Of a stretch of DNA of 64,000 bases, positions 45,380 to 60,810 are shown in pieces. The first letter of the stretch is position 1. Each line of letters begins with the position of its first letter. This DNA is from Minisyncoccota bacterium. GTDB taxonomy: Bacteria > Patescibacteriota > Minisyncoccia > Minisyncoccales > Minisyncoccaceae. The notes beneath the pieces are model-generated. The model made no database searches, was not told the DNA's origin, and worked only from the letters and a program-made list of their open reading frames with translations. The position numbers and the translations under genes are program-made. Location of the stretch: positions 29,041 to 93,040 of the forward strand of contig JBAZNB010000003.1 of NCBI GenBank assembly GCA_041649435.1, written 5' to 3'.

Positions 45380-45407
45380 ACAAGCGCCTTCTGAGGCGTT
45401 TTTTTAT
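45380..45407. terminator. bidirectional rho-independent terminator
   Basis: cgcct-tctg-aggcg hairpin followed by ttttttt. Confidence 0.55.
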
Positions 45408-46007
45408 TTTTTCCGATACATTAAAGCTTCGGAAATATGGGAAAAAAGAATTTTTTCTGAAGAATCCAAATCAGCAATAGTTCGAGCTACTTTTAAAACT
45501 CGATGATAGGCTCTGGGAGAAAGCTTACCAGAATCAACAGCTTGTTTTAAGAGACTTTTTGAATCATTATCAAAACTGCAAAAAGTTTTTATTTCCGGAA
45601 TTTGCATTTCTGAATTTTTTAATATTTTTAAAGATTTAAATCTATCGGCTTGAATTTTTCGAGCAGTTTTTATTTTTTCTTTTAATTCTTTTTCTAAAGA
45701 TTTATTTTCTTCAGCATTTAATTTGTCAAAATTTATCCGAGGAACATTAATAAACATATCAATTCTGTCCATTAAGGGGCCTGATAATTTTCGGCGATAC
45801 ATTTGAATTTGAGAGGCAGAACAAGTGCAAGCTTTTTCTGGATCTCCATAATAGCCGCAAGGGCAAGGATTGGCCGTGGCAATTAAAATAAATTGTGCCG
45901 GAAAGCTTATTTTTGTTTTTGCTCTTAAAATATTTATTTGGCCTTCTTCTAATGGCTGTCTTAAAGATTCTAAAACATCTCGGTGGAATTCCGGCAATTC
46001 ATCTAAA
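45404..46007 (-). pseudogene. comM: comM/yifB (Mg-chelatase-like AAA+ ATPase) 3' fragment, severed by element insertion
   Basis: The frame reads ...LDELPEFHRDVLESLRQPLEEGQINILRA...ATANPCPCGYYG, the conserved ComM/YifB C-terminal half. An in-frame stop lies immediately upstream at 46019-46021, inside element DNA. Confidence 0.8.
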
Positions 46008-47717
46008 GTTATTGTCCCTCAATAACTGATTACCCTCTGATATTGTGAGACCGACGTTAGCGTTGTTGTCCCACAATACTGGACTGGCCACTCCCACTAA
46101 GGCCGCTAAACCGTGAGAATTGGCTTGTTTTTCGGCATTAAAGTTCAATTCCACCTCGGCCTCTGCCTTTTTAGGATACACGATAACTCTTTTTACGAGA
46201 AGCCTTAGCGCCTCCTGTTGCTCGTCATAGGTCAGGCTATCCAGTTTTTTTGCCAGTCTTGCGTACTGACTTTCTATTAATTCGGCCATTTTCTTTACAC
46301 CCTTTCGATCAAGTAGCCTGCGCTCAAGTCTCATTTTATCTTGTCTCAATTTATCCTCTTGCTCGCGACACTCTGTAACTGATTTTTTATAGTTTTCGTG
46401 GTCCATTCCCTCATCCTCCGAATAAATTTGACCGAGGCGGTACCTTTTTAATGTGAGTGACTTCAGGCTTTTATCAATTTGTTGTAAACGTTCCTCGGTG
46501 TCGTCCTTTGATATTCTTTCCTCATTGTATTTCCTTAGGCGCTCAAGTGTCAGCTCGGGCTTTTTGAGAATGTCTTTTATTTTATCCCAAATTGGGTAGA
46601 GGCGCGTTTCTGCTATCTGCTCACAAGCCGGGCACCTTTGCGTTGTACCGACTTCCATTTTGGTACACATTCCGTGGTAGTATTTTGATCCGTTGTTTCC
46701 GTCTTTCTTTGGTGGCTGGTATCCACCGAATAGCTTAAAACCACAGCTTCCGCAATAAATAATTTTTGAAAATAAATAATTTCTTTTCTGATTTCTCTTT
46801 GAAAATTCCCTGTTCCTCAAAAGCTGTTGAGTGCAGGCGTCAAAAACTTCCCTCGGTACAATTTCCGGTACTTTAATTTCTACCCATCCTGCGCGGTCTC
46901 TTAAAAGGTTCTCGTCAATCAAACTGGTCAAATTATTAAAAGGTCTTTTGTATTTTCGGTAGTAGGCGCTCCCTGTGTAAGTTTCGTTAGTTACAATTCT
47001 GCCAAGTGTTCTTTTATGCCAAACGTTTAATGTGTCTTTTTTGGACACCTTTCTACGTGGCAGGGGTATTTTCATACTATTTGCTCTTTTTTGTACTTCC
47101 CGAAGCGACAAGCGATCCTCTACAATCCAACGAAAAAATGTTTTAACCCATTTCGCTTCCTCGGGTACTACTTTCAATTTTTGAGTTTCGTCGTCTACTC
47201 TGTAACCATAAGGTGGAACGCCTGTTACCCATTTTCCGTCTTTAGCGGCTGAAATTCTGCCATTCGTTGTTCTCTCTCGGATCGTGTCTCTTTCCATCTC
47301 AGCGATAATTGAAAGAAAGCCAACCATTCCTTTCCCGTACACAGTGGTTGTATCAAATGATTCAGTTACTGATTTGAATTCCATTTTCCATTCGCGGAAT
47401 TCTTTTAGGGTGTTTAATAAAAGAGTGGCGTCTCTGAAAAGTCTATCAAGTCTATAAACAAGAATGATATCAAACTCGCGGTTTTTCGCGTCTGCAAATA
47501 ATTTTAATGCCCCGGGCCGTTCTGATGCTGATAATGAGCCGGAAAAACCCTCATCGCGATAAATGTGTTTTTCGTCGAGGGTGTAGTCGTTTGCAATAGC
47601 AAACGCTTTTAATTTTTCCTCTTGAACAGCAAGCCCGTACCCAGTTGTGGCCTGCTCATTGGTGGATACTCTTAAATAAATTGCGGCTCTTAGTCTTTTG
47701 TTTGGTGTGTTGTTCAT
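45999..47717 (-). CDS. large serine recombinase (integrase)
   Basis: 572 aa; resolvase catalytic domain with AAIYLRVSTNEQ (nucleophile Ser), recombinase domain, Cys-rich zinc ribbon (CGSCG...CPAC), and C-terminal coiled-coil. Confidence 0.85.
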   Translation of the reverse strand: MNNTPNKRLRAAIYLRVSTNEQATTGYGLAVQEEKLKAFAIANDYTLDEKHIYRDEGFSGSLSASERPGALKLFADAKNREFDIILVYRLDRLFRDATLLLNTLKEFREWKMEFKSVTESFDTTTVYGKGMVGFLSIIAEMERDTIRERTTNGRISAAKDGKWVTGVPPYGYRVDDETQKLKVVPEEAKWVKTFFRWIVEDRLSLREVQKRANSMKIPLPRRKVSKKDTLNVWHKRTLGRIVTNETYTGSAYYRKYKRPFNNLTSLIDENLLRDRAGWVEIKVPEIVPREVFDACTQQLLRNREFSKRNQKRNYLFSKIIYCGSCGFKLFGGYQPPKKDGNNGSKYYHGMCTKMEVGTTQRCPACEQIAETRLYPIWDKIKDILKKPELTLERLRKYNEERISKDDTEERLQQIDKSLKSLTLKRYRLGQIYSEDEGMDHENYKKSVTECREQEDKLRQDKMRLERRLLDRKGVKKMAELIESQYARLAKKLDSLTYDEQQEALRLLVKRVIVYPKKAEAEVELNFNAEKQANSHGLAALVGVASPVLWDNNANVGLTISEGNQLLRDNNFR

Positions 47718-47798
47718 AATTTTAGTTTAATTTTAATAATAATTTGTGGATGATGTCCCTACTACACATATGCCAATTAAATCGATATAAGTAAAGCG

Positions 47799-48503
47799 TC
47801 ATTTGCAGAATTTGTCGTATTTGCCGGGAGTGACGGGAATATAGTTTGAAAATTTTGTTTGATTATTGTTTCCTTTTTGGGATTCTCGGTGATTTTTAAT
47901 AAAAATGCGAAGTGCGGCGTTGTAGTTCTCATAAGTTTTCCCGGTTGTTTTGCAGTAATTTATTAAATCGTCAATTTTTCTTAAAATAAATTGTTCGGAC
48001 ACTTTGTACTTGCTTACTAATTCGGCCATATCGTCTGCCGGTATTTTTTCAAGGTAATTAACAGACGACCTCTCGACTTTTTCTTGTAATTTATATATAC
48101 CCTTGATCTTACTTGGGTTGAGTTTAATTTTAGTTGAGTTAGTAGCTATCTCCTGCCCCGTGGTTTGGGCATCGTTTGCCCCATATGGGTCATCGGCTGA
48201 CCTATTACTTTTTTTATTTTTTATGATTAAAATTTGGTACAAGTTTGAATAGTTTTTCCCGTCACAACTTTTTCTTATTGTCTTTTTTACAAACCCCATT
48301 TCTTCAAGACGTGCTATCCGTTTCTTGACGGTGTTTTTACAAACACGCGATAAGCGTGCGAGCGTATTAATGCTTGGGTAACATTGCCCGTTTTTATCTG
48401 AGAAGTCACAAATCCAAAAGAAAATACTTTGACTGATTGCATCTGTTTCTTTCAGTTTTTCTTTGTTTGGTATAACGAGGAAAGAGCCCTTTTCGTATTT
48501 CAT
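47799..48503 (-). CDS. HTH (winged-helix, replication-initiator/regulator-like) protein
   Basis: 234 aa; CYPSINTLARLSRVCKNTVKKRIARLEEMGFV is a typical phage/plasmid replication-protein wHTH. Confidence 0.4.
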   Translation of the reverse strand: MKYEKGSFLVIPNKEKLKETDAISQSIFFWICDFSDKNGQCYPSINTLARLSRVCKNTVKKRIARLEEMGFVKKTIRKSCDGKNYSNLYQILIIKNKKSNRSADDPYGANDAQTTGQEIATNSTKIKLNPSKIKGIYKLQEKVERSSVNYLEKIPADDMAELVSKYKVSEQFILRKIDDLINYCKTTGKTYENYNAALRIFIKNHRESQKGNNNQTKFSNYIPVTPGKYDKFCK

Positions 48504-48691
48504 AACTCTTTTGGGTCCGTTGTTACGGCACTTGGGTTTTTCTCGACCTTTTGTATTTCTGCTGATGGTTGATCGTCTTGTTCGTTAAGAACACTGTCAA
48601 AAAATGCAAACAATACTTTGTATGATTCTTTTTCGTCGACAGTTTGTGCCGAGAAATTTACTGAAACTGGTTGTTTGCATTTAGTGTCCAT
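48500..48691 (-). CDS. hypothetical protein
   Basis: 63 aa ORF inside the element; coding status uncertain. Confidence 0.2.
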   Translation of the reverse strand: MDTKCKQPVSVNFSAQTVDEKESYKVLFAFFDSVLNEQDDQPSAEIQKVEKNPSAVTTDPKEL

Positions 48692-48693
48692 AT

Positions 48694-48966
48694 TTATTCG
48701 CTGTAAATGCGGTTTTTCAACATTTTTATGTTGTCAAAAAACGATCTCGCTCCGACCTTTGTTTTTCCGGTCCAGTAACCGTCGGCGACCTTTTCTATGT
48801 CTTTTGCACGATTAAAAATAAACTGGACTTTTCTTGGATTTGTTTTATCCAGTCCAATTAATTCAAAACCGGCCGTAACAAGTAATGCGGCGGCTCCTAA
48901 ATCAAATGTGTACAGACGGTTTCCGTCCCCTTTGTCGATGTTTTGTTGTTCTTGATTGATTTTCAT
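48694..48966 (-). CDS. hypothetical protein
   Basis: 90 aa with no recognisable motif. Confidence 0.3.
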   Translation of the reverse strand: MKINQEQQNIDKGDGNRLYTFDLGAAALLVTAGFELIGLDKTNPRKVQFIFNRAKDIEKVADGYWTGKTKVGARSFFDNIKMLKNRIYSE

Positions 48967-49100
48967 AATTATTTTGATTAATTTTTTGCGCCCGACTTTG
49001 CACGTAAAACAAAAAAGACTACTTATGTGTGTAGTCTATGCTTTGAGCCTGTGGACGGCCGTGACTTTTTTCGGACGGTTTCGGGCGAGCTAAAGTCTTA

Positions 49101-49718
49101 TTAAATTGTTCTTAGAAATTCGTGTTTATTGTATTGAAAAAGCTCTTTTATCCCGAGCCGGTCTTGGGCTTTTTTATTTATTTCGGTCATTGTGTCATAA
49201 ACCTTTTTCCACTCACCCTTTTGAGGTATCTGCTGTATCTCCTTGAGGCCTTGAGCTTCGCTGTAAATCAAATCCCAACTTACCCATTGGTCTGTTGGGA
49301 ATTCATACATTTTCTTACAGAAATAAAATTGGCCAGTGTCGCGCGGTATTTTTACTTCATTGAGTCCGAAGGTTATCTGGCTTTCTGTGGGGTCAAAAAT
49401 CGTGCTGTCTCCGGCTCCTCTTTTTATAAATTCTCTCATTTTAGGAACGTCCATTTCGCAATCAAATGCGAAGCCAGTCATTTGTGAGTTAATTGTATGT
49501 GCTTCTCCGTAGTGAACCTTGTCTATGATTCTCAGGCTTTCCAGTAAGTCCACAAATTCCTTTATTTCGTTTTCAAAAATCCCGAGTTCCTCTTTTATTG
49601 GATCAATAAAAAAAGTAGCTGAGTCTATTTTGGGGGCTATGTCTCCAAAAATTCCAGCTAAAGCAGTACCTTTTTCCAGCACAAATTGTGCAAGTTGTAA
49701 GTTGATCTTGCGTGTCAT
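49101..49718 (-). CDS. hypothetical protein
   Basis: 205 aa with no recognisable motif. Confidence 0.35.
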   Translation of the reverse strand: MTRKINLQLAQFVLEKGTALAGIFGDIAPKIDSATFFIDPIKEELGIFENEIKEFVDLLESLRIIDKVHYGEAHTINSQMTGFAFDCEMDVPKMREFIKRGAGDSTIFDPTESQITFGLNEVKIPRDTGQFYFCKKMYEFPTDQWVSWDLIYSEAQGLKEIQQIPQKGEWKKVYDTMTEINKKAQDRLGIKELFQYNKHEFLRTI

Positions 49719-49814
49719 TGTAATTGTAATTTTGTAATTAAATTATACCTCAAAAAACAAAAAACCGCTATTAAAATAACGGTTTTTCAGCGTTCGTATT
49801 TATGTTACTTTCTG

Positions 49815-50162
49815 TTACTTATTCTCCAAAATCCACACTTGGCTTTTGTTTGCCCAGTTAATCGGCATTTCTACTGAGGCAAGCTCCGCGCCGTGACCAA
49901 TAATTTTAAGGAGACCTTTTCCTAAACCTTTAGCGTCAACTGCTACAGTCTCAATATCCTTGATTGGTACCCGGAACGTTTGGCCGTAAGGATGGTTAAA
50001 ATTCAAAAAACCTGTTTCAATTTTTAGTTTACCGCCAACGCCCAGTGGCCCCAGCTTCAAAACTTTGTTATTCATATTTTTGCTTGATTGGACTTTGTTC
50101 GGCGGTGTCGACTTTCGCTTTTTTACACAAAAAGCCCACCACCGAGTAGTGGCTTGCGCCAC
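49815..50162 (-). CDS. hypothetical protein (possible PH-like fold; likely start at internal Met ~50075)
   Basis: Gly-rich beta-strand pattern LGPLGVGGKLKIETGFLNF...; no catalytic motif. Confidence 0.3.
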   Translation of the reverse strand: MAQATTRWWAFCVKKRKSTPPNKVQSSKNMNNKVLKLGPLGVGGKLKIETGFLNFNHPYGQTFRVPIKDIETVAVDAKGLGKGLLKIIGHGAELASVEMPINWANKSQVWILENK

Positions 50163-50312
50163 TCATACCTGTTTCCAGATATGGCCAATCAAGCGACCCC
50201 GATGATGGGTTGTTTATGCTCGATTGGACTTGCGGCCATACCGTCAGTTTCCCGACGGGTTAGGTCATTTTTATTCAGTTGTGATTCTATCTTATCAAAT
50301 TTTTCGGACTTA

Positions 50313-50774
50313 TTAAAGGGCCGTTTGATAATTATCCAGTAAATCCTCAAGCGTCTTTTCTCCACTGCCTTTCGCGGAGTAAAAATACACTTCTTTGTGT
50401 GTTTTATATGCTGGGTGTTTACGGCTTAAATAAAACCTCACTGATGGCCCATCTCCTTGTAGTATTTTCAACATTAAAATGTCCTCAACAAGATCGTTAA
50501 GGTGGTTTTGAATGTGATCAATTTTTTCTTTAAATTCTTTATCCTCTTTTAGCCAGCGATAGAAGGTGTCCCGGCTGATTCCTGTTTGTTGGGCTACGAG
50601 ACTAACGCTTGAACCGCCAACACTTTCAAATACCGCCACAAATCGTTCTTTAGCTTGCCGGGTGCTGTTACGCTCAACTTTCTGAACATAATCGCACACG
50701 GGGCCAACAGTGGCCCCACGGGTGGTTAACGCTGGTGAAAGGTGCTCAATTTTGTAGGATTTGTCAGATTTCAT
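50313..50774 (-). CDS. HTH protein resembling a phage terminase small subunit or regulator
   Basis: 153 aa; GISRDTFYRWLKEDKEF helix-turn-helix typical of TerS/HTH_23-type proteins. Confidence 0.35.
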   Translation of the reverse strand: MKSDKSYKIEHLSPALTTRGATVGPVCDYVQKVERNSTRQAKERFVAVFESVGGSSVSLVAQQTGISRDTFYRWLKEDKEFKEKIDHIQNHLNDLVEDILMLKILQGDGPSVRFYLSRKHPAYKTHKEVYFYSAKGSGEKTLEDLLDNYQTAL

Positions 50775-50808
50775 ATTGAGAATGGCTTAGATTGCCTTAA
50801 CTCTATTA

Positions 50809-50855
50809 TGTCAAAAACTGCCATTTTTGACAACGCAAACTGAAAAAGGTAAAAT
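50809..50855 (+). promoter_or_regulatory. sigma70-type promoter (TTGACA-17-TAAAAT) overlapped by a 9-bp perfect inverted-repeat operator
   Basis: tgtcaaaaa(50809-50817)-ctgcca-tttttgaca(50824-50832). The second arm is the -35 ttgaca (50827-50832), followed by a 17-nt spacer and taaaat (50850-50855). Lies upstream of the xis-like gene. Confidence 0.5.
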
Positions 50856-50887
50856 TAAAGCACAACAGCTAAAAGTTAAACATAGTT

Positions 50888-51079
50888 ATGAACACAAGTA
50901 TCGATAAACTTTTTACGATCGAGGAAGTGGCTAAAATTTTGAGAGTAAGTACGCGCTCTGTGACTCGCTATATTGAGACCGGAAAATTAAAGGCCTCAAA
51001 AATTGGATTGTGGAGAATTAAAGAAACAGATTTAAACGAGTTTTTGGAAAGAACGAGTAATACAAAATCAAAAAAATAA
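50888..51079 (+). CDS. excisionase/MerR-type HTH_17 DNA-binding protein
   Basis: 63 aa; LFTIEEVAKILRVSTRSVTRYIETGKLKASKIG..WRI is the Xis/HTH_17 signature. Confidence 0.6.
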   Translation: MNTSIDKLFTIEEVAKILRVSTRSVTRYIETGKLKASKIGLWRIKETDLNEFLERTSNTKSKK

Positions 51080-51082
51080 TTT

Positions 51083-51913
51083 ATGGAATTTAATAACAAA
51101 GTTTTTTTTAAAGACGCACGAACGATGAAGGAGTTACCTGATAATTCCGTGCAGTTGATTGTAACAAGTCCGCCTTATTTTAATATAAAAGACTATTCAC
51201 TTGATGGTCGCCAAGAGAAAAAGCAAACAGCTAAGGCAAAGGGTCAAATCGGAGATATCTCTGACTATTCAAAATACATAAAGGAGATGCTGGCTGTATG
51301 GAAAGAATGCGAAAGAGTTTTAAAGCCTAACGGAAAACTGATTGTAAACACTCCATTAATGCCGATGCTAAAAAAGAATTTAATTACGCACTACAACCGG
51401 CACATTTTTGATATTAATAGCGACATTGAACATTCCATTTTAAATGGAACAGGTCTATTTTTAATGGACGTGTACATTTGGAATAGAACAAATCCGTCAA
51501 AGAAGTTAATGTTCGGAAGCTATCCATATCCTCGTAATTTTTACGCACAAAATACAATTGAATTTATAACAGTTTTTGTAAAAGACGGGCAACCGGAAAA
51601 TAACTTGCCAAAAGAAATAAAAGAAAAAAGTAAACTAACGCAGAAGGAGTGGGTGGAGCTGACCAAGCAGATATGGAACATACCAATTCCCGGCAGAGGA
51701 GATATCGCCTTCGGTGAACACTCTGCAATTATGCCAGAGGAAATTGTTAGGAGATGTGTAAAATTATTTACTTTTGTAGGCGAAACGGTATTAGACCCTT
51801 TTGCTGGTTCCGGCACCACTCTTAAGGTTGCCAAAGAATTAGGCAGAAAATACGTAGGCTATGAAATTTCAAAAAGCTATGAGAGAGTTATTAAGCTAAA
51901 GTTAAAAGACTAA
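51083..51913 (+). CDS. DNA methyltransferase (beta-class N4-C/N6-A, SPPY motif)
   Basis: Motif IV VTSPPYFN precedes motif I LDPFAGSGTT (beta-class order). Confidence 0.85.
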   Translation: MEFNNKVFFKDARTMKELPDNSVQLIVTSPPYFNIKDYSLDGRQEKKQTAKAKGQIGDISDYSKYIKEMLAVWKECERVLKPNGKLIVNTPLMPMLKKNLITHYNRHIFDINSDIEHSILNGTGLFLMDVYIWNRTNPSKKLMFGSYPYPRNFYAQNTIEFITVFVKDGQPENNLPKEIKEKSKLTQKEWVELTKQIWNIPIPGRGDIAFGEHSAIMPEEIVRRCVKLFTFVGETVLDPFAGSGTTLKVAKELGRKYVGYEISKSYERVIKLKLKD

Positions 51914-51915
51914 CT

Positions 51916-52698
51916 ATGCTTGAAATTAATAAAATTTATAACTTAGACTGCTTTGACTTCTTAAAAAAAGTTGATAATAACTCCATTGATCTTGCTGTAA
52001 TTGATCCGCCCTATAATATGCATAAAGCGGACTGGGATACGTTTAGGTCGCAAAAGGAGTTTTTGGATTTTACCCATAAATGGCTTGATCTTGTTATTGA
52101 TAAGCTAAAAGAAAATGGCAGTCTTTATGTGTTTAATACGCCATATAATTCCGCTTTTATTTTGCAGTACCTTGTTTCAAAAAAAATGGTGTTCCAAAAT
52201 TGGATTACTTGGGATAAACGGGATGGTATGGGTGCTTCAAAAAAGAAATACAGCAACGGACAGGAAACGATATTGTTTTTTACAAAGTCAAACAAACACA
52301 CTTTTAATTATAATGATATTCGCCTCCCTTATGAGTCTACCGAAAGAATTCAACACGCGGCCGAAAAAGGTATATTGAAAAATGGTAAGAGGTGGTTCCC
52401 AAACCCTAAGGGTAGATTTTGTGGCGAGGTTTGGCATATAACAAGCGAAAGACACAAAAGAAAAGTAAACGGAAAGACACAAAAAATGGGTCACCTAACC
52501 CCAAAACCACTTGATCTTGTTGAGAGAATTATCAAAGCAAGCTCAAAAAAAGGTGATCTTGTGTTGGATTGTTTTGTCGGTAGTGGGACAACTGCTGTTG
52601 CCGCAAACCGATTGCATAGAAATTATTTGTGTGCTGATTCGGACAAAAATTATGTAGAATTATCAAAAAAAAATCTCAAAGAATATGGCATTAATTGA
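51916..52698 (+). CDS. DNA methyltransferase (beta-class N6-A/N4-C, DPPY motif)
   Basis: Motif IV VIDPPYNM precedes motif I LDCFVGSGTT. Confidence 0.85.
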   Translation: MLEINKIYNLDCFDFLKKVDNNSIDLAVIDPPYNMHKADWDTFRSQKEFLDFTHKWLDLVIDKLKENGSLYVFNTPYNSAFILQYLVSKKMVFQNWITWDKRDGMGASKKKYSNGQETILFFTKSNKHTFNYNDIRLPYESTERIQHAAEKGILKNGKRWFPNPKGRFCGEVWHITSERHKRKVNGKTQKMGHLTPKPLDLVERIIKASSKKGDLVLDCFVGSGTTAVAANRLHRNYLCADSDKNYVELSKKNLKEYGIN

Positions 52699-53944
52699 TA
52701 TTAATCAAGGGAATAAAGCGCTGGAGTTTATAACGAAAAGGATCGCCGATGATAAATATCGGGGACTTCATTTCTCACAGCATAATAGATATGATTCAAA
52801 ACGAATTGTAGAAATTTTGAAATTGTTAGACCAGTATGCTCCTAACAAAACATTGATGGCCATTAGGACGACTGATTTATCAAAGAGGCCAACTAATACT
52901 TCAGAGGAAGCTGAATATGCGCGTTTTTGTGATGCGGCAAAAGACATCTCTGGGATCGGAACTCAAGACGCGATGCGAAAAAATTTGTTTGTTGATTTGC
53001 ATAGGATGGGTCTAATTAATCGATATAATAAAAAGGAAGAAACACTTGACCCGTTTGCTCGTTCTGGTGTTAAGTACGTTTCAATATCCGACCTTGGCCA
53101 CAAGCTAATTAAAGCACCCACGATATTAGACCAAGACTTTATTTTTTCAAAAGCAATCGATACGCTTCTCGGCGGTTCCATCGATATGATTCTTGATATT
53201 CTTAGAGATACAGACTACCAATTAGACCATATCTCGATTTCCGAATATATGTTTTTTGTTTCTGCCATAGGTATGGATGCTTCATTTAAAGTAAATACCG
53301 ATGAAGCAGTTGATTTAATCAAATCATATAGAACGCTTGCTAAAACACAAAGACAAGCGGTATTGGAAACGTTAAAAAATGATTTAGTCCCTAAAAAATT
53401 TACCGGATCAAAAATTAAAAAAAGAGATTTTCATAATTGGAGAAACGAAGCCCAACAAGTTTTTGTTTTATTAAATCAAACTGTGTATTTTGAACAGCGT
53501 GGCGAACAACTTGTATTAAGGACCGGCAAGGACAGCTTTGAGGGTATTCAGACACAAAAAAGACTCGATAGGTCTCTTAATGAAAAATACCAATACTTTG
53601 TTAATCATAAAATCAAAACAAAAATTAGTGGCTTTGAATTGCATCACGTCGTGCCGTTAGCGTGGTCAGAAAGTCAAAATCACTTCAAGCTATTAGATAA
53701 ATGGCAGAATATGGTTTATATTGACGCCTTTAGTCACGCTAAAATAACTCAGAATAAAAATAGAAACGTGGTTATGGACTTCGATAATGATAATATGACC
53801 CTATCTGATTATTCAAAAAATTGTGTTTATTTGAAAAAAGATGAAAACCTTGCTTATGACTCCTCAAAGAGCACAAAACTAAAAGACTATAATTTAGATT
53901 TACTTAAAACTGTTCCTAACGATGTCGGCGTGACTGTGCAATAA
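52685..53944 (+). CDS. putative restriction endonuclease with C-terminal HNH nuclease motif
   Basis: 419 aa; overlaps the end of MTase 2; ELHHVVPLAWSESQNH...H is HNH-like. The assignment as the R-M nuclease partner is an inference. Confidence 0.5.
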   Translation: MALIDINQGNKALEFITKRIADDKYRGLHFSQHNRYDSKRIVEILKLLDQYAPNKTLMAIRTTDLSKRPTNTSEEAEYARFCDAAKDISGIGTQDAMRKNLFVDLHRMGLINRYNKKEETLDPFARSGVKYVSISDLGHKLIKAPTILDQDFIFSKAIDTLLGGSIDMILDILRDTDYQLDHISISEYMFFVSAIGMDASFKVNTDEAVDLIKSYRTLAKTQRQAVLETLKNDLVPKKFTGSKIKKRDFHNWRNEAQQVFVLLNQTVYFEQRGEQLVLRTGKDSFEGIQTQKRLDRSLNEKYQYFVNHKIKTKISGFELHHVVPLAWSESQNHFKLLDKWQNMVYIDAFSHAKITQNKNRNVVMDFDNDNMTLSDYSKNCVYLKKDENLAYDSSKSTKLKDYNLDLLKTVPNDVGVTVQ

Positions 53945-54110
53945 GTCTTAAATTAAAAAGGTAAAAAATAAAACAGGGCTTAAGCTCTGTTTTATTTTAA
54001 TTGTCGATGCATTCCCGGGTTTGTTGCTATAACCTCTCGGCGCCTATCTAACTCTGAAAGGATTGGGATTTTTATAAACAAACTTCGGTATATTGTGGGA
54101 CATTTATCAA

Positions 54111-55031
54111 AAATAAAACACCTTTATGGGCCAAAGTTATTTCGCCAGGACAAGGCGGATTTCCGCCTCCCAAAAGAGCAGCTTCAGATGAAGTATGATG
54201 GGGAGATCGAAAGGGAGCGGAAACAATCAAAGGATAATCTGCAGATAAGTTTCCAATCAAGCTGTGTATTTTTGTCACTTCTAAAGATTCTGCCTGATTT
54301 AAAAAAGGGAGAAGTCGGGCAAAAGATTTAGCGAGTAATGTTTTTCCTGTGCCTGGAGGCCCTTCCATTAATAAATTGTGGCCTCCAGCAGCTGCTATCT
54401 CTAAAGCACGTTTTGCATATTCTTGGCCTTGAACCCAGCCAATATTTGCTCTTTTCCCTATTGTCTCAGAAAATTGCAAATAGGAATCATTAATTATGGT
54501 TTCAGGAATATTTTTTATTTTTTCCAAATGGCAAATAACTTGTTTTAAATTTTCAAATCCGAAAACCTTTATCCCCTTAACCAGAGCTGCTTCTTGGCTG
54601 TTTTCTTTTGGAAGAATTATTTCTTCAAAACCTTGCCTTTTTGCTTCGCTGGCAATAATTAGAGCCCCTTTGATTGGTTTTAGTCGTCCGTCTAAAGAAA
54701 GCTCTCCAACAATCATTTTTTTATCAGCATTAAAAAAAGCTTGTTTTGAAGCTAAAAGATAGCACAAGGCAATAGGCAAATCAAAAAGCGCCCCTTCTTT
54801 TTTTATTTCTGCGGGCGCTAAATTAACAATTATTTTTTGAGTCTGTTCGGTCGGGCTTTTAATCTTGGTATTTTTAATGGCCAAATCTACTCTTTCTTTT
54901 GATTCATCTACTGATTTGGCGGCCATACCAACAACACTAAACGATCTTAATCCATTAGTGCATTCTACTTCTACTTCAATTATTTGGGCATTTATTCCCA
55001 AAATAGTTGAAGAGAAGACTTTAGCACACAT
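54111..55031 (-). pseudogene. comM: comM/yifB 5' fragment (N-terminal half), severed by element insertion
   Basis: ComM N-domain plus AAA+ core (EGPPGTGKTLLAK) ending ...AHKGVLFL. The ORF then continues 11 codons (INVPQYTEVCL) into element DNA to a stop at 54072. Confidence 0.8.
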
Positions 55032-55484: not shown

Positions 55485-56372
55485 TTAAATTTGTTCATCC
55501 ATTTTTTTATTTATTAAGGCTAGTTTTTCTTTAATATTGTTGATATCCAAGGGCATAATCTGGTATTCTGCTTTTAATCGGGTGTATACGTCTTCCAGCT
55601 TGCTTAATTCGTCTTCAGCCTCCCATCTAGCTTGTTCAAGTTCTCTTCTTCTTTCTTCGGCTGCTCTTCTTTGATCTTCTAAAGTTCGAACATCTTCAGA
55701 AGAAGTAGAATTTATTTTTTCTTCCAAAGATTTAATTTCTTTTTCAGCTGAATCCTCGGCTTTATTTATTTCTGATAATTTTTTATTTAGAACTTCTCTC
55801 TGGGCCGCAGTGTCATGTAAAAGATTTTTTAAACCAGTAGTTCGAGTTTGAATTTTTTCCAAGTCGATCATTAAATTTTGTTTTTCTTCTTCCAAAATCA
55901 GAGAATCGAGGCTTTTTTCAAAATCAGGATTCCATTCAGTTTTTTCATAATAAAATTTATCCCAGTCTTTTAGCTGAAGCTTCATTAGCTTCACTTCTTC
56001 TTGTTTTTTTGCTAAATTTTCTTCTACTAAATTTCTTTCATCTTCAACAATTCTTCTTTGTTGCTCTGCGTCTTTTCTTTCTTCTGGAGTTTTTGCTCCC
56101 GCTTCCCTATCTTCAATCTCTTTTTTTAATTGTTCGATTCTTTTTTTTCTCTCAAAAAGTAATTCTAATCTTTTTTCTGCTTTTTCTATTTCGTTTTCAA
56201 TTTCTTTTCGTTTGTCTTCAAAAGATACTCCCTGAGGAAGATTATGTTTTGGAGTGTCTGAAATTTCTTTGGTTGACAAGCCAAAAGAATCAAGTCCTTT
56301 TTCTAAGGTTTCTATTTTTAATTTTATGCTTTTTAAATCTTTTTTTATATTATCAATTTTTTCTTTGTCCAT
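55485..56372 (-). CDS. K/E-rich coiled-coil protein (paralog of 56384-58189)
   Basis: 295 aa; ...ERKKRIEQLKKEIEDRE...ERNLVEE... aligns with the C-terminal half of the next ORF. Confidence 0.4.
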   Translation of the reverse strand: MDKEKIDNIKKDLKSIKLKIETLEKGLDSFGLSTKEISDTPKHNLPQGVSFEDKRKEIENEIEKAEKRLELLFERKKRIEQLKKEIEDREAGAKTPEERKDAEQQRRIVEDERNLVEENLAKKQEEVKLMKLQLKDWDKFYYEKTEWNPDFEKSLDSLILEEEKQNLMIDLEKIQTRTTGLKNLLHDTAAQREVLNKKLSEINKAEDSAEKEIKSLEEKINSTSSEDVRTLEDQRRAAEERRRELEQARWEAEDELSKLEDVYTRLKAEYQIMPLDINNIKEKLALINKKMDEQI

Positions 56373-56383
56373 TTTTAAAAGAA

Positions 56384-58189
56384 TTAATCGTTTTTATTCA
56401 TTTTCTTATTTATTTCGGAAATTTTTTCTTTTAATTCATTGGCCTCTGAGGCAAAAGATTGGTATTTTTCTCTTAATTCCAAGCGCAAAGATTCGGCCTT
56501 GCTTAAGTCGTCTTCTGTTTGCCATCTTTCTTCTTCTGTTTTTCTTCTCTTTTCTTCCGCTGACTTTCTTTGAGCTTCTAGTTTTCGCAATTCTATTTCT
56601 GGAATCGTTAGGTCTGTTCTTTTTTCCAAAACTTTTATCTCTTCTTCAATTCCCTGCTCTTCTTCTTTTATTTTATTTATTTTTTTATCAATCAATTCTT
56701 TTTGAGAAGTGTTTTCATTCATTAAATCTTTGATACTGTTTGCTTCGTTTTGGACTTTTTCTAATTTTTCTAATAATTTTTCTTTTTCTTCATTTAAAAT
56801 TAAATAATTTTTATCTCTTTTTAAAAGGTCAAGCTCCATATTGAGTTCTTTTTCTCGAGAAAGAATTTTTTCAAAATTAAGATTAAATTCATTTAATTGA
56901 AGACGTAATGATTTTATTTCATCTTCTTTTTTGTTTTTTTCTTGCTCTACAGTGTTTCTTTCATCTTCTATCTTCCAGCGTTCTTTTTCCATATTTCTTT
57001 TTTCTTCAGCTGTTTCCGCGCCTTCTTCTTTGGTTTCAGTGGTTTTTTTTAATTCTTCGATTCTTTTTTTCCTTTCTAAAATTAGGTCTAGGCGTTGTCT
57101 GGCTTTATCTATTTCCCTTTCAATATCTTTTCTTTTTTCTTCAAACGGAATTTTTTCATCATTAATTTGAATAATGTTTTGTTCTATTTCAAAAATAAGG
57201 TCGGTTAATTTTCTTAGCTTTTCTTCATTTGTTTCTTCTTTTTTCAAAGAAAAAAATTCATCACTTAAGAAAGATTCTTCTTTGGCAGTTTCTTCTTTTT
57301 CTAAAACATCTTCTTTCTTTTTCTCTGGCTTTAATTCCTCTAAAGAAATTATTGTTTCTTCTTTTTCATCTTTTTTTTCTAAAGAATCTTTGAATGGAAA
57401 ATCAACACTGCGCAAACCTTGCTCTTCTTTTAAATTATCGTCTAGCTCTAGACCTGGAATCTCCCCGATATCTATTTGTTCGTGGTCGCTTTCTGGCAAT
57501 TCTAAATTTTCTAAATCATCAATAGCTAACCCAGCGCCAGAATCTTCTTTTGAAAAATCAGGCGATTCTTGTTCAAAATCAGTTAAATTTTCAGCCAAGC
57601 TCAAACCTTCTTCGGCTAAATCGGAGATGTTTTCTTCTTGAGCAACTTCTTCAGTTAATTCTGGTTCTTTGATTTGTTTTGGAGCAACTTCTTCAGTTAA
57701 TTCTGGCTCTTTGATAGTTTTTTTAATTTCTTGTTCAGATGAGTCTTTTTTGGGTGCGATAAAAGCTGGAATTGGCAATTCTGGTTCGGGTTCATTTTTT
57801 TCAAAAACAGATTCTATGTTGGTCGGAGCCTCTTCAATATGAGGCATAAGTTCTTTTTCTTCTTCGCTATCCCCTTCGGCAACATTTATTTTTATTTGAT
57901 TTCTTTTTTCCATTGGTACAATAATTGCATTGCCTTCGATAATGGGTATATTTTTTTCTGTCGAGTTAAGAGGTTTTTCTTCTAGAGCTTGTTTTTGTTC
58001 AAGCTCTTTTTCTTTTTGCGCCAAAGCGGCAATAACTGCTTTTTCTTTTTCTAATTGATTTTTAACGTTTTCTATTTTTGTATCTAAAAAAACACCCTGC
58101 GCATTAGCTTGTTCCCTCTGCGCGGCATTAATATCTTTTTTCATTGTCCTTATTTTGGTGGTTTCTATTGTGAAAATATTTTCCTCCAT
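56384..58189 (-). CDS. large acidic coiled-coil protein with internal tandem repeat
   Basis: 601 aa; repeats IKEPELTEEVA x2 (42-nt DNA period at ~57641-57715); C-terminal half paralogous to 55485-56372. Confidence 0.4.
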   Translation of the reverse strand: MEENIFTIETTKIRTMKKDINAAQREQANAQGVFLDTKIENVKNQLEKEKAVIAALAQKEKELEQKQALEEKPLNSTEKNIPIIEGNAIIVPMEKRNQIKINVAEGDSEEEKELMPHIEEAPTNIESVFEKNEPEPELPIPAFIAPKKDSSEQEIKKTIKEPELTEEVAPKQIKEPELTEEVAQEENISDLAEEGLSLAENLTDFEQESPDFSKEDSGAGLAIDDLENLELPESDHEQIDIGEIPGLELDDNLKEEQGLRSVDFPFKDSLEKKDEKEETIISLEELKPEKKKEDVLEKEETAKEESFLSDEFFSLKKEETNEEKLRKLTDLIFEIEQNIIQINDEKIPFEEKRKDIEREIDKARQRLDLILERKKRIEELKKTTETKEEGAETAEEKRNMEKERWKIEDERNTVEQEKNKKEDEIKSLRLQLNEFNLNFEKILSREKELNMELDLLKRDKNYLILNEEKEKLLEKLEKVQNEANSIKDLMNENTSQKELIDKKINKIKEEEQGIEEEIKVLEKRTDLTIPEIELRKLEAQRKSAEEKRRKTEEERWQTEDDLSKAESLRLELREKYQSFASEANELKEKISEINKKMNKND

Positions 58190-60622: not shown

Positions 60623-60737
60623 TTTTTTATTTTTTAATTTTTATTATGCGCCTTGTTTTAGTTTTTTAACCAAAACAGGTGTCTCTTCAATATTTAATTG
60701 TTAATAAGATTGTCTTTTTTATCGCAGGCTTCCGTTG

Positions 60738-60810
60738 TGCCCCGTGAGGGATTCGAACCCACGACCTTGAAGTTAAGAGCTTCCTGCTCTACCAACTGAG
60801 CTAACGGGGC
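60738..60810 (-). tRNA. tRNA-Lys (anticodon CTT)
   Basis: Manual cloverleaf: acceptor GCCCCGT/ACGGGGC, D-arm GCTC-AGTTGGTA-GAGC, anticodon loop CTCTTAA (U33, CUU, A37), T-loop TTCGAAT with one U-U mismatch in the T-stem. No encoded CCA. Confidence 0.7.

What the first reader, a model, noticed from the sequence alone, without database searches (positions are those of the whole stretch)
46006..54110. ~8.1 kb serine-integrase element inserted in comM with reconstructable attB/attP
comM/yifB is split into a 5' part (54111-55031) and a 3' part (45404-46007). Joining the host halves of the two junctions gives ccggcaattcatctaaaaataaaaca. Its reverse complement encodes ...GVLFLDELPEF..., the conserved ComM motif that is broken in the fragments (N-fragment ...GVLFL|INVPQ..., C-fragment ...|LDELPEFHR). 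Joining the element halves gives an attP-like site, tattgtgggacatttatcaaagttattgtccctc, with imperfect inverted arms gggaca...tgtccc around a central 'aa' crossover. The arm motif tattgtg(g/a)gac recurs at 46041-46051, with its inverse gtcccacaata at 46067-77. The large serine recombinase gene ends 8 bp from the left junction. GC content of the element is visibly higher than the ~30% host, which argues for recent horizontal acquisition. comM is a known hotspot for integrative elements in other bacteria.
Basis: partly seen in the sequence, partly recalled or inferred. Interest (0 to 1): 0.75.

Follow-up and report, generated by a model that had tools for sequence, protein, structure and literature searches.

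The report
Serine-integrase element with spare attP sites
An 8.1-kb mobile element has cut the competence gene comM of an uncultured Paceibacteria (CPR) bacterium in two using a large serine integrase, which is a known habit of such elements, but this family carries several tandem attachment sites that differ only in the two crossover bases, apparently so that it can enter comM genes that spell one codon differently.

Summary
An 8,104-bp element (window 46007-54110) interrupts comM inside the Walker B codons (VLFL|DE). Conspecific contigs (~97% identical) carry an intact comM with exactly the reconstructed attB. The element encodes a large serine recombinase (LSR), a replication-initiator-like protein, DUF5659, a LOOT RNA and an MboII-like restriction-modification cargo.

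LSR insertion into this Mg-chelatase-like gene is already the commonest LSR target reported (Durrant 2022), so the finding as given is a new member of a known kind.

Three things appear new.
1. Across about 35 related elements, arrays of 2-4 attP sites carry only the cores CT, TT, AT and GC, the same set found at the used junctions, where they start the Leu, Met or Ala codons seen there. Cores never repeat within an array. Near-identical elements use different sites depending on the host codon.
2. attP lies inside the LSR gene, so integration cuts off a conserved ~38-aa tail.
3. The orphan LOOT RNA is a conserved part of this family.

One relative occurs integrated and unintegrated at 100% identity, diverging exactly at the core.

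The parts
45404..46006 (-). comM 3' fragment (from the Leu codon before D-E of Walker B to the stop), including the left copy of the crossover dinucleotide (46005-46006)
   Evidence: ORF list and sequence. The reconstruction gives full-length Pfam hits. It aligns to intact comM in L006-L009 up to window 46007.
45985..46026 (.). Left junction (attR in the comM/LSR sense): B' half-site 45985-46004, core AA 46005-46006, P arm 46007-46026 (agttattgtccctcaataac)
   Evidence: The P arm is homologous to those of L001, L002, L004 and L025.
45999..47717 (-). Large serine recombinase gene (572 aa as integrated). The ORF crosses the P arm and core and stops at a TGA in comM-derived sequence.
   Evidence: Pfam Resolvase 1.3e-33, Recombinase 1.2e-13, Zn_ribbon_recom 0.0014. 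PHROG integrase 6e-104. Invariant S18 and four Cys residues in alignment A1.
46041..46078 (.). Second, unused attP-like site (S1): tattgtgagac - 7 nt - core AG (46059-46060; CT in the LSR sense) - 7 nt - gtcccacaata. It lies inside the LSR 3' coding end, 54 bp core-to-core from the used site.
   Evidence: Zero mismatches to the strict class-I attP pattern, which has no background hits in 675 kb. Conserved in L001, L002, L011, L025 and others.
47799..48503 (-). HTH_36 protein, replication-initiator-like
   Evidence: Pfam HTH_36 1.8e-13. PHROG replication initiation families around 1e-15. Homologues in L004, L011, L022 and L065.
48500..48691 (-). 63-aa ORF conserved in the closest relatives
   Evidence: tblastn hits in L001 and L025.
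48694..48966 (-). DUF5659 protein (90 aa), part of the conserved core
   Evidence: Pfam DUF5659 1.6e-10. Present in L001, L004, L011, L025 and L066.
49101..49718 (-). 205-aa protein of unknown function, conserved in close relatives
   Evidence: No family hit. tblastn 72% to L001, 68% to L025, 29% to L004.
49815..50162 (-). 115-aa ORF (doubtful gene). Its 5' end overlaps the LOOT RNA, so the real start, if there is one, is probably later.
   Evidence: No family hit and no homologues apart from the stretch that overlaps LOOT. Bracketed by terminator-like hairpins.
50148..50266 (-). LOOT RNA (Rfam RF03000), full length, followed by a terminator-like hairpin
   Evidence: 88.2 bits against a gathering score of 46.4. 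Also found in 12 related elements. Terminator-like site at 50152-50136.
50313..50774 (-). 153-aa HTH protein (transposase-HTH / small-terminase-like, weak); specific to this element
   Evidence: All Pfam HTH matches are below their cut-offs. PHROG small-terminase families 1e-6 to 1e-7. No homologue in related loci.
50805..50855 (.). Divergent promoter-like pair separating the leftward core operon from the rightward R-M cargo
   Evidence: Consensus scan: + strand 11/12 match, - strand 10/12 with TG. This is a consensus match only.
50888..51079 (+). 63-aa HTH_17 / excisionase-family DNA-binding protein, 4 nt upstream of the first methylase. It is either an R-M controller or an RDF candidate.
   Evidence: Pfam HTH_17 1.3e-16. 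TIGR01764 at 42.1 bits, above the 28.8 cut-off. A homologue only in L011.
51083..51913 (+). DNA methyltransferase 1 (N6_N4_Mtase)
   Evidence: Pfam PF01555 1e-47.
51916..52698 (+). DNA methyltransferase 2 (N6_N4_Mtase)
   Evidence: Pfam PF01555 4.7e-62.
52685..53944 (+). 419-aa putative type IIS restriction endonuclease (MboII-like); overlaps the end of methylase 2
   Evidence: No Pfam, NCBIfam or PDB match. A 67%-identical homologue, P0246, is named 'Type-2 restriction enzyme MboII' by its NCBI source, and others are named 'restriction endonuclease subunit R'.
53992..54108 (-). Detached 3' exon of the LSR gene: 38 codons (DKCPTIYRSLFIKIPILSELDRRREVIATNPGMHRQLK*) that are in frame with the LSR only in the excised circular form
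   Evidence: The virtual circular ORF reads through. There are 9 synonymous versus 4 non-synonymous differences from L025 (by-eye codon comparison of the sequences printed). The peptide aligns with the native C-termini of P0023-P0040.
54087..54130 (.). Right junction (attL in the comM sense): P' arm 54087-54108 (ggtatattgtgggacatttatc), core AA 54109-54110, B half-site 54111-54130
54109..55031 (-). comM 5' fragment (start codon to VLF, plus the core). As it stands, the ORF (54072-55031) gains 12 element-encoded codons.

Best explanation
Window 46007-54110 is an 8,104-bp integrative element of a Candidatus Paceibacterota (CPR) bacterium. Its large serine recombinase (LSR) recombined an element site (attP) with a 2-bp-core site in comM. 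That site lies exactly at the first two bases of the Leu codon preceding the Asp-Glu of the Walker B motif.

Shown by sequence comparison:
- The insertion is conservative.
- The empty site exists in conspecific genomes.
- The whole LSR family, down to 42% identity, hits the same codon.
- One relative occurs integrated and unintegrated at 100% identity, with the break at the core.

Inferred from established serine-integrase mechanism: LSR dimers on attP and attB synapse, make 2-nt staggered cuts, rotate 180 degrees and religate. Religation works only if the two central dinucleotides match, and the core alone sets orientation.

New inference, strongly supported by natural variation: the family carries tandem arrays of 2-4 complete attP sites with near-identical arms but different cores (CT, TT, AT, GC). 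Each matches a codon found at that comM position (Leu CTN, Leu TTR, Met ATG, Ala GCN). Only the site whose core matches the host's codon gives a product, so one element can enter comM alleles that a single attP could not. In the window the used site has TT and the spare site at 46041-46078 has CT.

Further inferences, less certain:
- Integration separates Walker A from Walker B and so inactivates ComM, which should lower transformation-driven loss of the element.
- Integration also cuts a conserved 38-aa tail off the LSR. That tail is restored only in the circle, which is a possible state-dependent control.
- The Rep-like gene may allow episomal replication.
- The MboII-like R-M cargo may stabilise or defend the element.
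- The role of the LOOT RNA is unknown.
- The excision factor (RDF) has not been identified.
For: Insertion and empty site.

LSR identity.

The same codon is targeted in about 35 non-redundant elements from Buchanan-, Kaiser-, Zambryski-, Sung- and Saccharibacteria and from Firestonebacteria.

Core position:
- Overlap analysis gives W 9-11, L002 10-12 and L004 10-11.
- Orientation rule: all 28 elements with CT, TT or GC cores lie in one orientation. The palindromic AT core occurs once forward and twice inverted. L014 is inverted on a host AGT codon, and AG is the reverse complement of CT.

Same element in both states: L066 and L025 are 100.000% identical over 3,567 nt and diverge right after the TT core.

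Arrays:
- The strict attP pattern hits only next to comM junctions in 675 kb.
- Cores of unused sites are CT, TT, AT or GC only, and never repeat within an element. Examples are L004 GC|CT*|TT|AT, L022 and L064 CT|TT|AT*, and L044 CT*|AT|TT (* marks the used site).

Alternative use of orthologous arrays by near-identical LSRs:
- L029 uses CT while L031 and L032 use TT; LSRs 86-92% identical.
- L067 uses CT while L011 uses TT; LSRs 96.6% identical.
- L040 and L014 use CT while L051 uses TT.
- Protein-level pairs: P0014 and P0020 at 91%, P0008 and P0006 at 85%.

When an inner site is used, the remaining sites appear just inside the far junction, as the model predicts (L004, L029, L040, L044, L067).

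Intact ComM homologues have Leu at this position in 116 of 119 cases and Met in 3.

The core-matching and polarity rules come from the literature: PMC3642061 and 10.1101/2025.01.03.631226.

Split LSR tail. LOOT RNA. R-M cargo.
Against: - No biochemical or read-level data. Nobody has shown that the spare sites bind this LSR or recombine.
- The window's own element was not seen as a circle. An exact attP search of viral contigs found nothing.
- Elements are phylogenetically related, so counts of cores are not independent events.
- Some family members show only one site (L012, L016, L026, L033's far side, L017).
- Class II arms (TTGCAAACC type) were curated by eye rather than by a pattern scan.
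- Several LSR dimers on adjacent attP sites might interfere. attP-attP tetramers have been seen in vitro and were judged non-productive.
- The consequences for ComM and for transformation are inferred from other bacteria.
- The tail's function, the RDF and the LOOT role are unknown.
- Published precedent outside the searchable library cannot be excluded.
Confidence: 0.8

Rival explanations
1. The extra attP-like sites are accessory or regulatory binding sites, like res sites II and III of Tn3/gamma-delta resolvase or an autoregulatory operator. On this view they help synapsis or control LSR expression and are never crossover sites themselves.
For: They sit close to the used site (45-111 bp in most elements). 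In the window's clade they lie inside the LSR gene. Small serine resolvases do use accessory sites (established knowledge).
Against: The number of sites (0-3 extra), their spacing (45 bp to 2.7 kb) and their order all vary. Any position in the array can be the crossover site: first in L044, second of four in L004, last in the window. Orthologous arrays are crossed over at different members in LSRs 86-97% identical. This model does not explain why the cores are limited to the four dinucleotides also found at the used junctions, why they are always distinct within an element, or why they are always in the same polarity.
Confidence: 0.07
2. The repeats are neutral relics: a duplicated peptide repeat in the LSR linker ((V/L)L(W/R)DNN...) or leftovers of past recombination between elements. 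They have no present function.
For: In the window's clade every site is translated in frame as a 13-14-aa repeat of the LSR C-terminal linker. Duplication is the likely origin.
Against: Both arms stay within 0-1 mismatch of the consensus, while neighbouring non-coding flanks are unalignable. In other clades the arrays lie outside the LSR gene (L029, L033, L044, L065). The cores are non-random and mutually exclusive. Orthologous sites differ precisely at the core: TT versus AT in L062/L043 and in L011/L067.
Confidence: 0.06
3. The element is a domesticated, developmentally regulated intervening element, like skin, SPbeta or the fdxN element with XisF, or 'active lysogeny' of Listeria phage in comK. 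Its excision restores comM when competence is needed, so it would not be a selfish, horizontally moving element.
For: Excision by an LSR would restore comM exactly. NCBIfam gives a weak similarity to XisF. The LSR is intact.
Against: The element is absent from ~97%-identical genomes. Its cargo is variable and strain-specific, consisting of R-M systems. Related elements occur across many CPR classes with the same target. An unintegrated copy exists and a Rep-like gene is present. The two ideas are not mutually exclusive: a mobile element can also act as a switch.
Confidence: 0.07

Closest known systems
LSR-borne mobile elements that target the Mg-chelatase-like (ComM/YifB) gene, catalogued by Durrant et al. 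2022 (PMC10083194)
   Same: A large serine recombinase at the element's edge, site-specific insertion inside the conserved AAA+ gene, and many distantly related LSRs sharing the target.
   Different: The host is a CPR/Patescibacteria bacterium. The nearest LSRs in annotated phages and plasmids are under 30% identical. Tandem attP arrays, the split LSR gene and the LOOT RNA did not appear in the passages of that paper returned by a term search for chelatase, competence, dinucleotide core, target gene, multi-targeting and Patescibacteria.
Listeria phages A118 and phi10403S in comK (serine integrase; 'active lysogeny')
   Same: A serine integrase inserts into a competence gene, and excision restores the gene precisely (own knowledge; A118 integrase paper PMC3556126, listed).
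   Different: Those are complete prophages with a single attP. Here there are no virion genes, the target gene is different, and there are several attP sites.
AbaR/Tn6022-type islands in comM of Acinetobacter baumannii (PMC11441513)
   Same: comM is interrupted by a cargo-carrying island. The proposed benefit is the same: less transformation means the island is not cured (abstract shown).
   Different: AbaR islands move by Tn7-like transposition with target-site duplication (own knowledge). Here movement is conservative serine recombination with a 2-bp core, and there are no tns genes.
Engineered orthogonal att pairs made by changing the central dinucleotide (Colloms et al. 2014, PMC3936721); Bxb1 polarity rule (Ghosh 2003, cited in PMC3642061)
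   Same: One integrase, identical arms, and specificity and polarity set only by the 2-bp core. A palindromic core loses polarity, which is seen here with AT.
   Different: Those are laboratory constructs. Here the sets of orthogonal cores are natural, sit in tandem on one element, and match codon variants of the target. [quoted passage not shown]
Integration-dependent immunity of cluster G/P mycobacteriophages (PMC3694055) and the SSV1-type integrase gene split by its own attP
   Same: attP lies inside a gene of the element, so integration changes that protein's C-terminus (own knowledge and the listing).
   Different: Those use tyrosine integrases, and the truncated gene is the repressor (or, in SSV1, the integrase is broken in the middle). 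Here a serine integrase loses a conserved ~38-aa tail, and the effect of that loss is unknown.

Membership tests
Large serine recombinase (serine integrase) integrative element | N-terminal resolvase-type catalytic domain with the serine nucleophile | tested here: met
   PF00239 E 1.3e-33, full profile. The RVSTNEQ motif has S18, which is invariant in an 18-sequence alignment.
Large serine recombinase (serine integrase) integrative element | Recombinase domain (DBD1) following the catalytic domain | tested here: met
   PF07508 E 1.2e-13, 51.6 bits against a cut-off of 21.1.
Large serine recombinase (serine integrase) integrative element | Zinc-ribbon domain (DBD2) with four Cys residues and an inserted coiled coil | tested here: inconclusive
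   PF13408 scores 19.4 bits, below the 25.3 cut-off. However, C322, C325, C362 and C365 are invariant in the family. The coiled coil was not modelled.
Large serine recombinase (serine integrase) integrative element | Conservative attP x attB exchange at a 2-bp core, with no target duplication beyond the core | tested here: met
   The empty site equals the joined flanks. The shared overlap is 2-3 nt, resolved to 2 nt by comparing three elements. L066 and L025 diverge exactly after the core.
Large serine recombinase (serine integrase) integrative element | Orientation is fixed by a non-palindromic core and lost with a palindromic one | tested here: met
   28 of 28 elements with CT, TT or GC cores share one orientation. 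AT occurs once forward and twice inverted. The AG case is inverted.
Large serine recombinase (serine integrase) integrative element | A recombination directionality factor for excision | not testable with these tools
   No conserved candidate could be assigned. The HTH_17 protein is linked to the cargo. DUF5659, the 63-aa ORF and the 205-aa protein remain candidates only.
ComM/Mg-chelatase-targeting LSR elements (Durrant 2022) | The disrupted gene is the YifB/ComM-type AAA+ protein | tested here: met
   ChlI, Mg_chelatase and Mg_chelatase_C all match. Homologues are named 'YifB family Mg chelatase-like AAA ATPase' by their sources.
Prophage | Capsid, tail, portal, large terminase and lysis genes | tested here: not met
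   None was found among the 10 ORFs with Pfam or PHROGs. There is only a weak small-terminase-like HTH match.
Integrative conjugative element | Relaxase, coupling protein and type IV secretion genes | tested here: not met
   No such Pfam or NCBIfam hits in the element.
res-type accessory-site architecture (Tn3/gamma-delta resolvase) | A fixed number and spacing of accessory sites, with crossover always at site I | tested here: not met
   Number, spacing and order vary. The crossover site changes between near-identical elements.
LOOT RNA (Rfam RF03000) | Score at or above Rfam's gathering threshold over the full model | tested here: met
   88.2 bits against 46.4, model positions 1-121 of 121.
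MboII-like type IIS restriction-modification system | Two methyltransferases plus one endonuclease related to MboII | tested here: inconclusive
   Two PF01555 methylases are present. The endonuclease assignment rests only on the name a source gave to a 67%-identical homologue. No family or PDB match was found.
AbaR/Tn7-like comM islands | tnsABCDE-type transposition genes and a 5-bp target duplication | tested here: not met
   No transposase genes. There is a 2-bp shared core and no duplication.

The most novel reading that the evidence does not exclude
The attP array and the split integrase gene together form a programmed, state-sensing integration module. Each attP repeat is at once a crossover site with its own central dinucleotide and a peptide repeat in the LSR linker. 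The site that is used therefore decides where the LSR is truncated in the integrated state. The conserved tail (IKIPILSExDRRREV..NPGMH) is present only on the circle-encoded enzyme and biases it toward integration, whereas the tail-less enzyme of the integrated element is silent or competent for excision. The conserved LOOT RNA could be a further cofactor or regulator of this switch.
Probability: 0.2. Interest if true: 0.85.

Novelty: new variant of a known kind. Interest (0 to 1): 0.7.

Why it matters
Serine integrases are leading tools for inserting large DNA. Their one hard rule is that the two central bases of attP and attB must match. This study points to a natural family that appears to get round that rule by carrying a cassette of otherwise equivalent attP sites with different central bases, tuned to the codons found at one position of a very conserved target. 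[quoted passage not shown]

The data give a ready-made set of natural orthogonal sites and matched LSRs to test. They show how a site-specific element can keep a broad host range across genomes of very different GC content. They give the orphan LOOT RNA its first consistent genomic home. They also document active, comM-disrupting mobile elements in CPR bacteria, whose dependence on DNA uptake makes interference with competence biologically relevant. The finding as originally stated, an LSR element in comM, is ordinary on its own.

Tried and rejected
- An exact search for the reconstructed 34-nt attP in viral contigs found nothing. A profile search with the LSR in viral contigs found only one distant hit.
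- A generic palindrome scan (at least 10 of 12 outer positions) was too noisy in AT-rich DNA (186 hits). It was replaced by a motif pattern, which has no background at 1 mismatch or fewer and 2-3 stray hits at 2 mismatches.
- The 419-aa ORF gave nothing in Pfam even at E=10, in NCBIfam or in the PDB. Only names on homologues helped.
- The 205-aa and 115-aa ORFs have no family match.
- The HTH_17 'excisionase' was considered as the RDF. It was rejected as a conserved RDF because it is adjacent to the cargo and absent from relatives.
- A prophage or ICE nature was rejected for lack of structural or conjugation genes. A phage-satellite reading, based on the weak small-terminase-like HTH, is left open but unsupported.
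- Assembly chimera was rejected, because the same junction type recurs in dozens of independent assemblies and the flanks match empty-site contigs.
- Literature searches found no paper that links comM with large serine recombinases by name, none on Patescibacteria with serine recombinases, and no natural tandem attP.
- The Weinberg 2017 supplement that describes LOOT is not held.
- Structure prediction was not used, because it could not address the main questions with the outputs offered.

Full report
**1. The observation**

comM is split as described. The 5' part is the ORF 54072-55031(-), which ends ...AHKGVLFL followed by 12 foreign codons. The 3' part starts ...LDELPEFHR and ends at 45404.

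Joining 46007 to 54112 gives a 507-aa protein. It has one uninterrupted Pfam Mg_chelatase match across the join (residues 200-401, E 4.9e-90), together with ChlI and Mg_chelatase_C.

A database search with this reconstruction found P0121, an intact 507-aa ComM that is 99% identical. Its contigs (L006-L009, from four different samples or assemblies) have the same neighbours: a dksA/traR-type zinc-finger gene, comM, a LysM-M23 peptidase gene and ksgA. They are ~97% identical to the window on both sides. They contain exactly the predicted attB, GGTGTTTTATTTTTAGATGAATTGCCGGAATTCC. The alignments stop at window 46007 and 54102.

The element's GC is 37.8% against 32.2% for the rest of the window.

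**2. Anatomy of the element (46007-54110, 8,104 bp, counting one copy of the core)**

A promoter-like divergent pair at 50805-50855 separates two modules.

Leftward module, on the minus strand:
- a 153-aa HTH protein
- a full-length LOOT RNA (50148-50266, 88 bits) followed by a terminator-like hairpin
- a doubtful 115-aa ORF
- a 205-aa unknown protein
- DUF5659
- a 63-aa ORF
- an HTH_36 replication-initiator-like protein
- the 572-aa large serine recombinase, with Resolvase, Recombinase and a sub-threshold zinc-ribbon match, and the catalytic motif RVSTNEQ

Rightward module:
- an HTH_17/excisionase-family protein
- two N6_N4 methyltransferases
- an overlapping 419-aa ORF, whose 67%-identical homologue is named 'Type-2 restriction enzyme MboII' by its source

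There are no virion or conjugation genes. By tblastn, only the LSR is shared by all relatives. HTH_36, DUF5659, the 205-aa protein and the 63-aa ORF are shared by the closer relatives. The R-M module is specific to this element.

**3. The crossover**

In the comM sense, attB reads GTT TTA TTT TTA GAT. The flank/element overlap covers bases 9-11 in the window, 10-12 in L002 and 10-11 in L004, where the Leu codon is CTT and the overlap reads CT. The crossover dinucleotide is therefore bases 10-11, the first two bases of the Leu codon before Asp-Glu of Walker B. It is also the symmetry centre of attP (GGGACAATAACT-TT-GATAAATGTCCC). On the window's + strand the two copies are AA at 46005-46006 and at 54109-54110.

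**4. A family with one target**

The LSR has hundreds of relatives, mostly named by their sources as Patescibacteria. I fetched 67 loci in all, including duplicates and the four empty-site contigs. Wherever enough flank was present, the LSR element interrupts comM at the same codon. This holds down to 42% LSR identity and across Buchanan-, Kaiser-, Zambryski-, Sung- and Saccharibacteria and a Firestonebacteria MAG.

The used cores, read in the LSR sense, were:

| Core | Host codon | Elements |
|---|---|---|
| CT | Leu CTN | 14, plus one on an AGT codon in inverted orientation |
| TT | Leu TTR | 12 |
| AT | Met ATG | 3 |
| GC | Ala GCC | 2 |

All 28 elements with non-palindromic CT, TT or GC cores have the LSR reading toward the comM 3' part. 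The palindromic AT occurs once in that orientation and twice inverted. L014, which has a CT attP, sits inverted in a host whose codon is AGT.

This is the behaviour expected if the central dinucleotide alone sets polarity, as established for Bxb1 (PMC3642061). It independently confirms where the crossover lies.

**5. Mobility**

L066 (ENA) and L025 (JGI) are 100.000% identical over 3,567 nt and part company exactly after the TT core. L066 continues into the comM 3' part, whereas L025 continues into the P' arm and the other end of the element. The same element is thus recorded both integrated and unintegrated.

L025's far side is 87% identical to window ~54013-54109, which validates the window's reconstructed attP.

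Several contigs (L028, L029, L040, L044) end about 100 bp beyond the junctions. This is what assembly forks produce when filled and empty alleles coexist in a sample. That reading is an inference.

**6. The spare attP sites**

It has the same arm sequence and 16-bp spacing as attP, but its core is CT in the LSR sense. It lies 54 bp from the used core.

A strict pattern for such sites (TTGNRGRAC-N7-NN-N7-GTYBCNCAA, at most 1 mismatch) hits only next to comM junctions in 675 kb of non-redundant loci on both strands.

Arrays found, with * marking the used site:
- window, L001, L002, L011, L031, L032, L038, L062: CT|TT*
- L027, L028: TT|CT*
- L037: AT|TT*
- L043: CT|AT*
- L022, L064: CT|TT|AT*
- L044: CT*|AT|TT
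- L004: GC|CT*|TT|AT
- L029, L040: CT*|TT
- L067: CT*|AT
- L033 and L065: CT ... TT*, separated by 0.5 and 2.7 kb
- L025 (unintegrated): CT|TT

Spare cores are only CT, TT, AT or GC, which is the same set as the used cores. They are always in the same polarity and never repeat within an element. When an inner site is used, the remaining sites lie just inside the far junction, as predicted.

**7. Alternative use shown directly**

- L029, L031 and L032 have LSRs 86-92% identical and an almost identical two-site array, while their neighbouring flanks are unalignable. L029 is crossed over at the CT site (host codon CTT). L031 and L032 are crossed over at the TT site (host codons TTA and TTG).
- L067 and L011 have LSRs 96.6% identical. 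L067 uses the first site (CT, host CTG) and L011 the second (TT, host TTG).
- L040 and L014 (CT) versus L051 (TT) do the same with a second arm type, TTGCAAACC....
- LSR C-termini in the protein database record the choice. P0014 and P0008 stop after the first repeat. Their relatives P0020 (91% identical) and P0006 (85% identical) stop after the second.
- Orthologous sites can differ only at the core: TT versus AT in L062/L043 and in L011/L067.

Among 119 intact ComM homologues, the residue at this position is Leu in 116 and Met in 3. CT plus TT therefore covers nearly all hosts, and which of the two is needed depends on codon usage.

Serine integrases cleave sites with mismatched cores but cannot religate them in the recombinant configuration (10.1101/2025.01.03.631226). 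A single attP would therefore be locked out of hosts that use the other Leu codon family.

I conclude, at about 75-80% confidence, that the arrays are sets of alternative crossover sites that widen the range of comM alleles an element can enter. The accessory-site and neutral-relic readings fit the data poorly (see the rival explanations).

**8. The integrase gene is split by integration**

In the window's clade the array lies in frame inside the LSR's C-terminal linker. Each site encodes a repeat such as LWDNNANVGLTI or LRDNNFDKCPTI.

The integrated ORF ends at a TGA created in comM sequence. In the circle it would read on through 53992-54108(-) into DKCPTIYRSLFIKIPILSELDRRREVIATNPGMHRQLK*.

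The same read-through holds for L002, L004 (through all four sites) and L064, and is real in L025, whose ORF is 624 aa. Between the window and L025 the tail shows 9 synonymous and 4 non-synonymous differences (by-eye codon comparison of the sequences printed). The tail aligns with the native C-terminus of the more distant LSRs P0023-P0040, whose arrays lie outside the gene.

Integration therefore removes a conserved tail. What that does is unknown. A state-dependent control of stability or directionality is a hypothesis only.

**9. LOOT RNA**

Rfam's LOOT motif has no assigned function in the papers available here. It is mentioned only for its six helices in PMC7657543, and the supplement of the discovery paper is not held.

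It occurs at full length in the window and in 12 related elements, including a Saccharibacteria one. It usually sits at the head of the operon that ends with the LSR. It is a conserved component of this element family.

**10. Comparison with what is known, and novelty**

Durrant et al. 2022 already found that an Mg-chelatase/ATP-dependent-protease-annotated gene is the most enriched LSR target (12.4% of site-specific LSRs), and that competence genes are enriched among LSR targets. comM disruption by AbaR islands, and the idea that mobile elements disable transformation to avoid being cured, are also published (PMC11441513, PMC4774983, PMC12378983). The finding as handed over is therefore correct but is a new member of a known kind.

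I could not find the following in the searchable literature: natural tandem attP arrays with alternative central dinucleotides (one search returned only engineered constructs, and quotes the view that multiple attP sites are biologically unlikely); an LSR gene split by its own attP; the LOOT association; or any description of these elements in CPR bacteria. The library is incomplete, so precedent cannot be excluded.

**11. Shown and inferred**

Shown:
- the insertion, the empty site and the position of the core
- the family-wide target and the orientation rule
- the same element in two states
- the existence, specificity and core content of the arrays
- alternative site use in near-identical elements
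- read-through into the conserved tail
- the presence of LOOT

Inferred:
- the catalytic mechanism, taken from the LSR family
- that spare sites are functional in the window's element itself
- loss of ComM function and its benefit to the element
- episomal replication
- the R-M specificity
- the role of the tail and of LOOT

The identity of the RDF remains unknown.

Noticed in passing
window 50148-50266 (-); also L001 957-1075, L002 6505-6625, L004 7404-7523, L011 6133-6255, L022 3653-3774, L026 5569-5689, L064 5834-5953, L065 6424-6537, L017 7185-7303, L028 3944-4076, L029 4049-4168, L033 6916-7037: A full-length LOOT RNA (Rfam RF03000, an orphan motif) lies inside the element and in 12 related comM-LSR elements. 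It usually heads the operon that ends with the LSR. In the window it is followed by a terminator-like hairpin (50152-50136).
   Followed up: partly
window 53992-54108 (-) together with 45999-47717 (-): The LSR gene is split by its own attP. A conserved 38-codon tail (…IKIPILSELDRRREVIATNPGMH…) is in frame only in the circular form. It aligns with the native C-termini of distant family members.
   Followed up: yes
window 50805-50855: A divergent pair of sigma-70-like promoter matches (11/12 and 10/12 with TG) sits between the leftward core operon and the rightward R-M operon.
   Followed up: no
L011 10001-10477, L013 10001-10408, L022 10001-10489, L037 10001-10444, L046 81-506, L051 10001-10450, L055 1195-1620, L064 9028-9552: Several relatives have a short ORF containing only a resolvase domain (about 150-175 aa, 33-41% identical to the LSR N-terminus) immediately upstream of the LSR. 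The window's element lacks it.
   Followed up: no
L065 6583-8729: In this relative the two attP sites are 2.7 kb apart. They bracket four genes, including an HTH_31 plus Peptidase_M78 pair (ImmR/ImmA-like). These genes would move to the other end of the element if the other site were used.
   Followed up: no
L029, L044, L040, L028 (contig ends): These contigs stop about 100 bp beyond the comM junctions on both sides. This is as expected from assembly forks when occupied and empty comM alleles coexist in one sample.
   Followed up: no
window 54102-54112 versus attB in L006 10921-10931: The first bases of the P' arm next to the core (GATAAAT) resemble the attB bases at the same place (AGATGAAT), so blastn extends 8 nt past the true junction. 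attR junctions also score within 2-3 mismatches of the attP pattern, because the B' half (GACGAATTTCCGGAATT) resembles a P' arm.
   Followed up: partly
window 60715-60810: Relative to the empty-site contig L006, the alignment breaks next to a tRNA gene (60738-60810), and identity falls from 97% to 93% beyond it. This suggests an indel or a second variable spot.
   Followed up: no
window 55485-58189 (-): Two adjacent Glu/Lys-rich, coiled-coil-like ORFs (295 and 601 aa) with similar C-terminal halves lie just beyond comM. They are conserved in the empty-site contigs and have no Pfam hit on record.
   Followed up: no
L017 4732-4802: A tRNA gene lies inside the Saccharibacteria member of the element family.
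   Followed up: no
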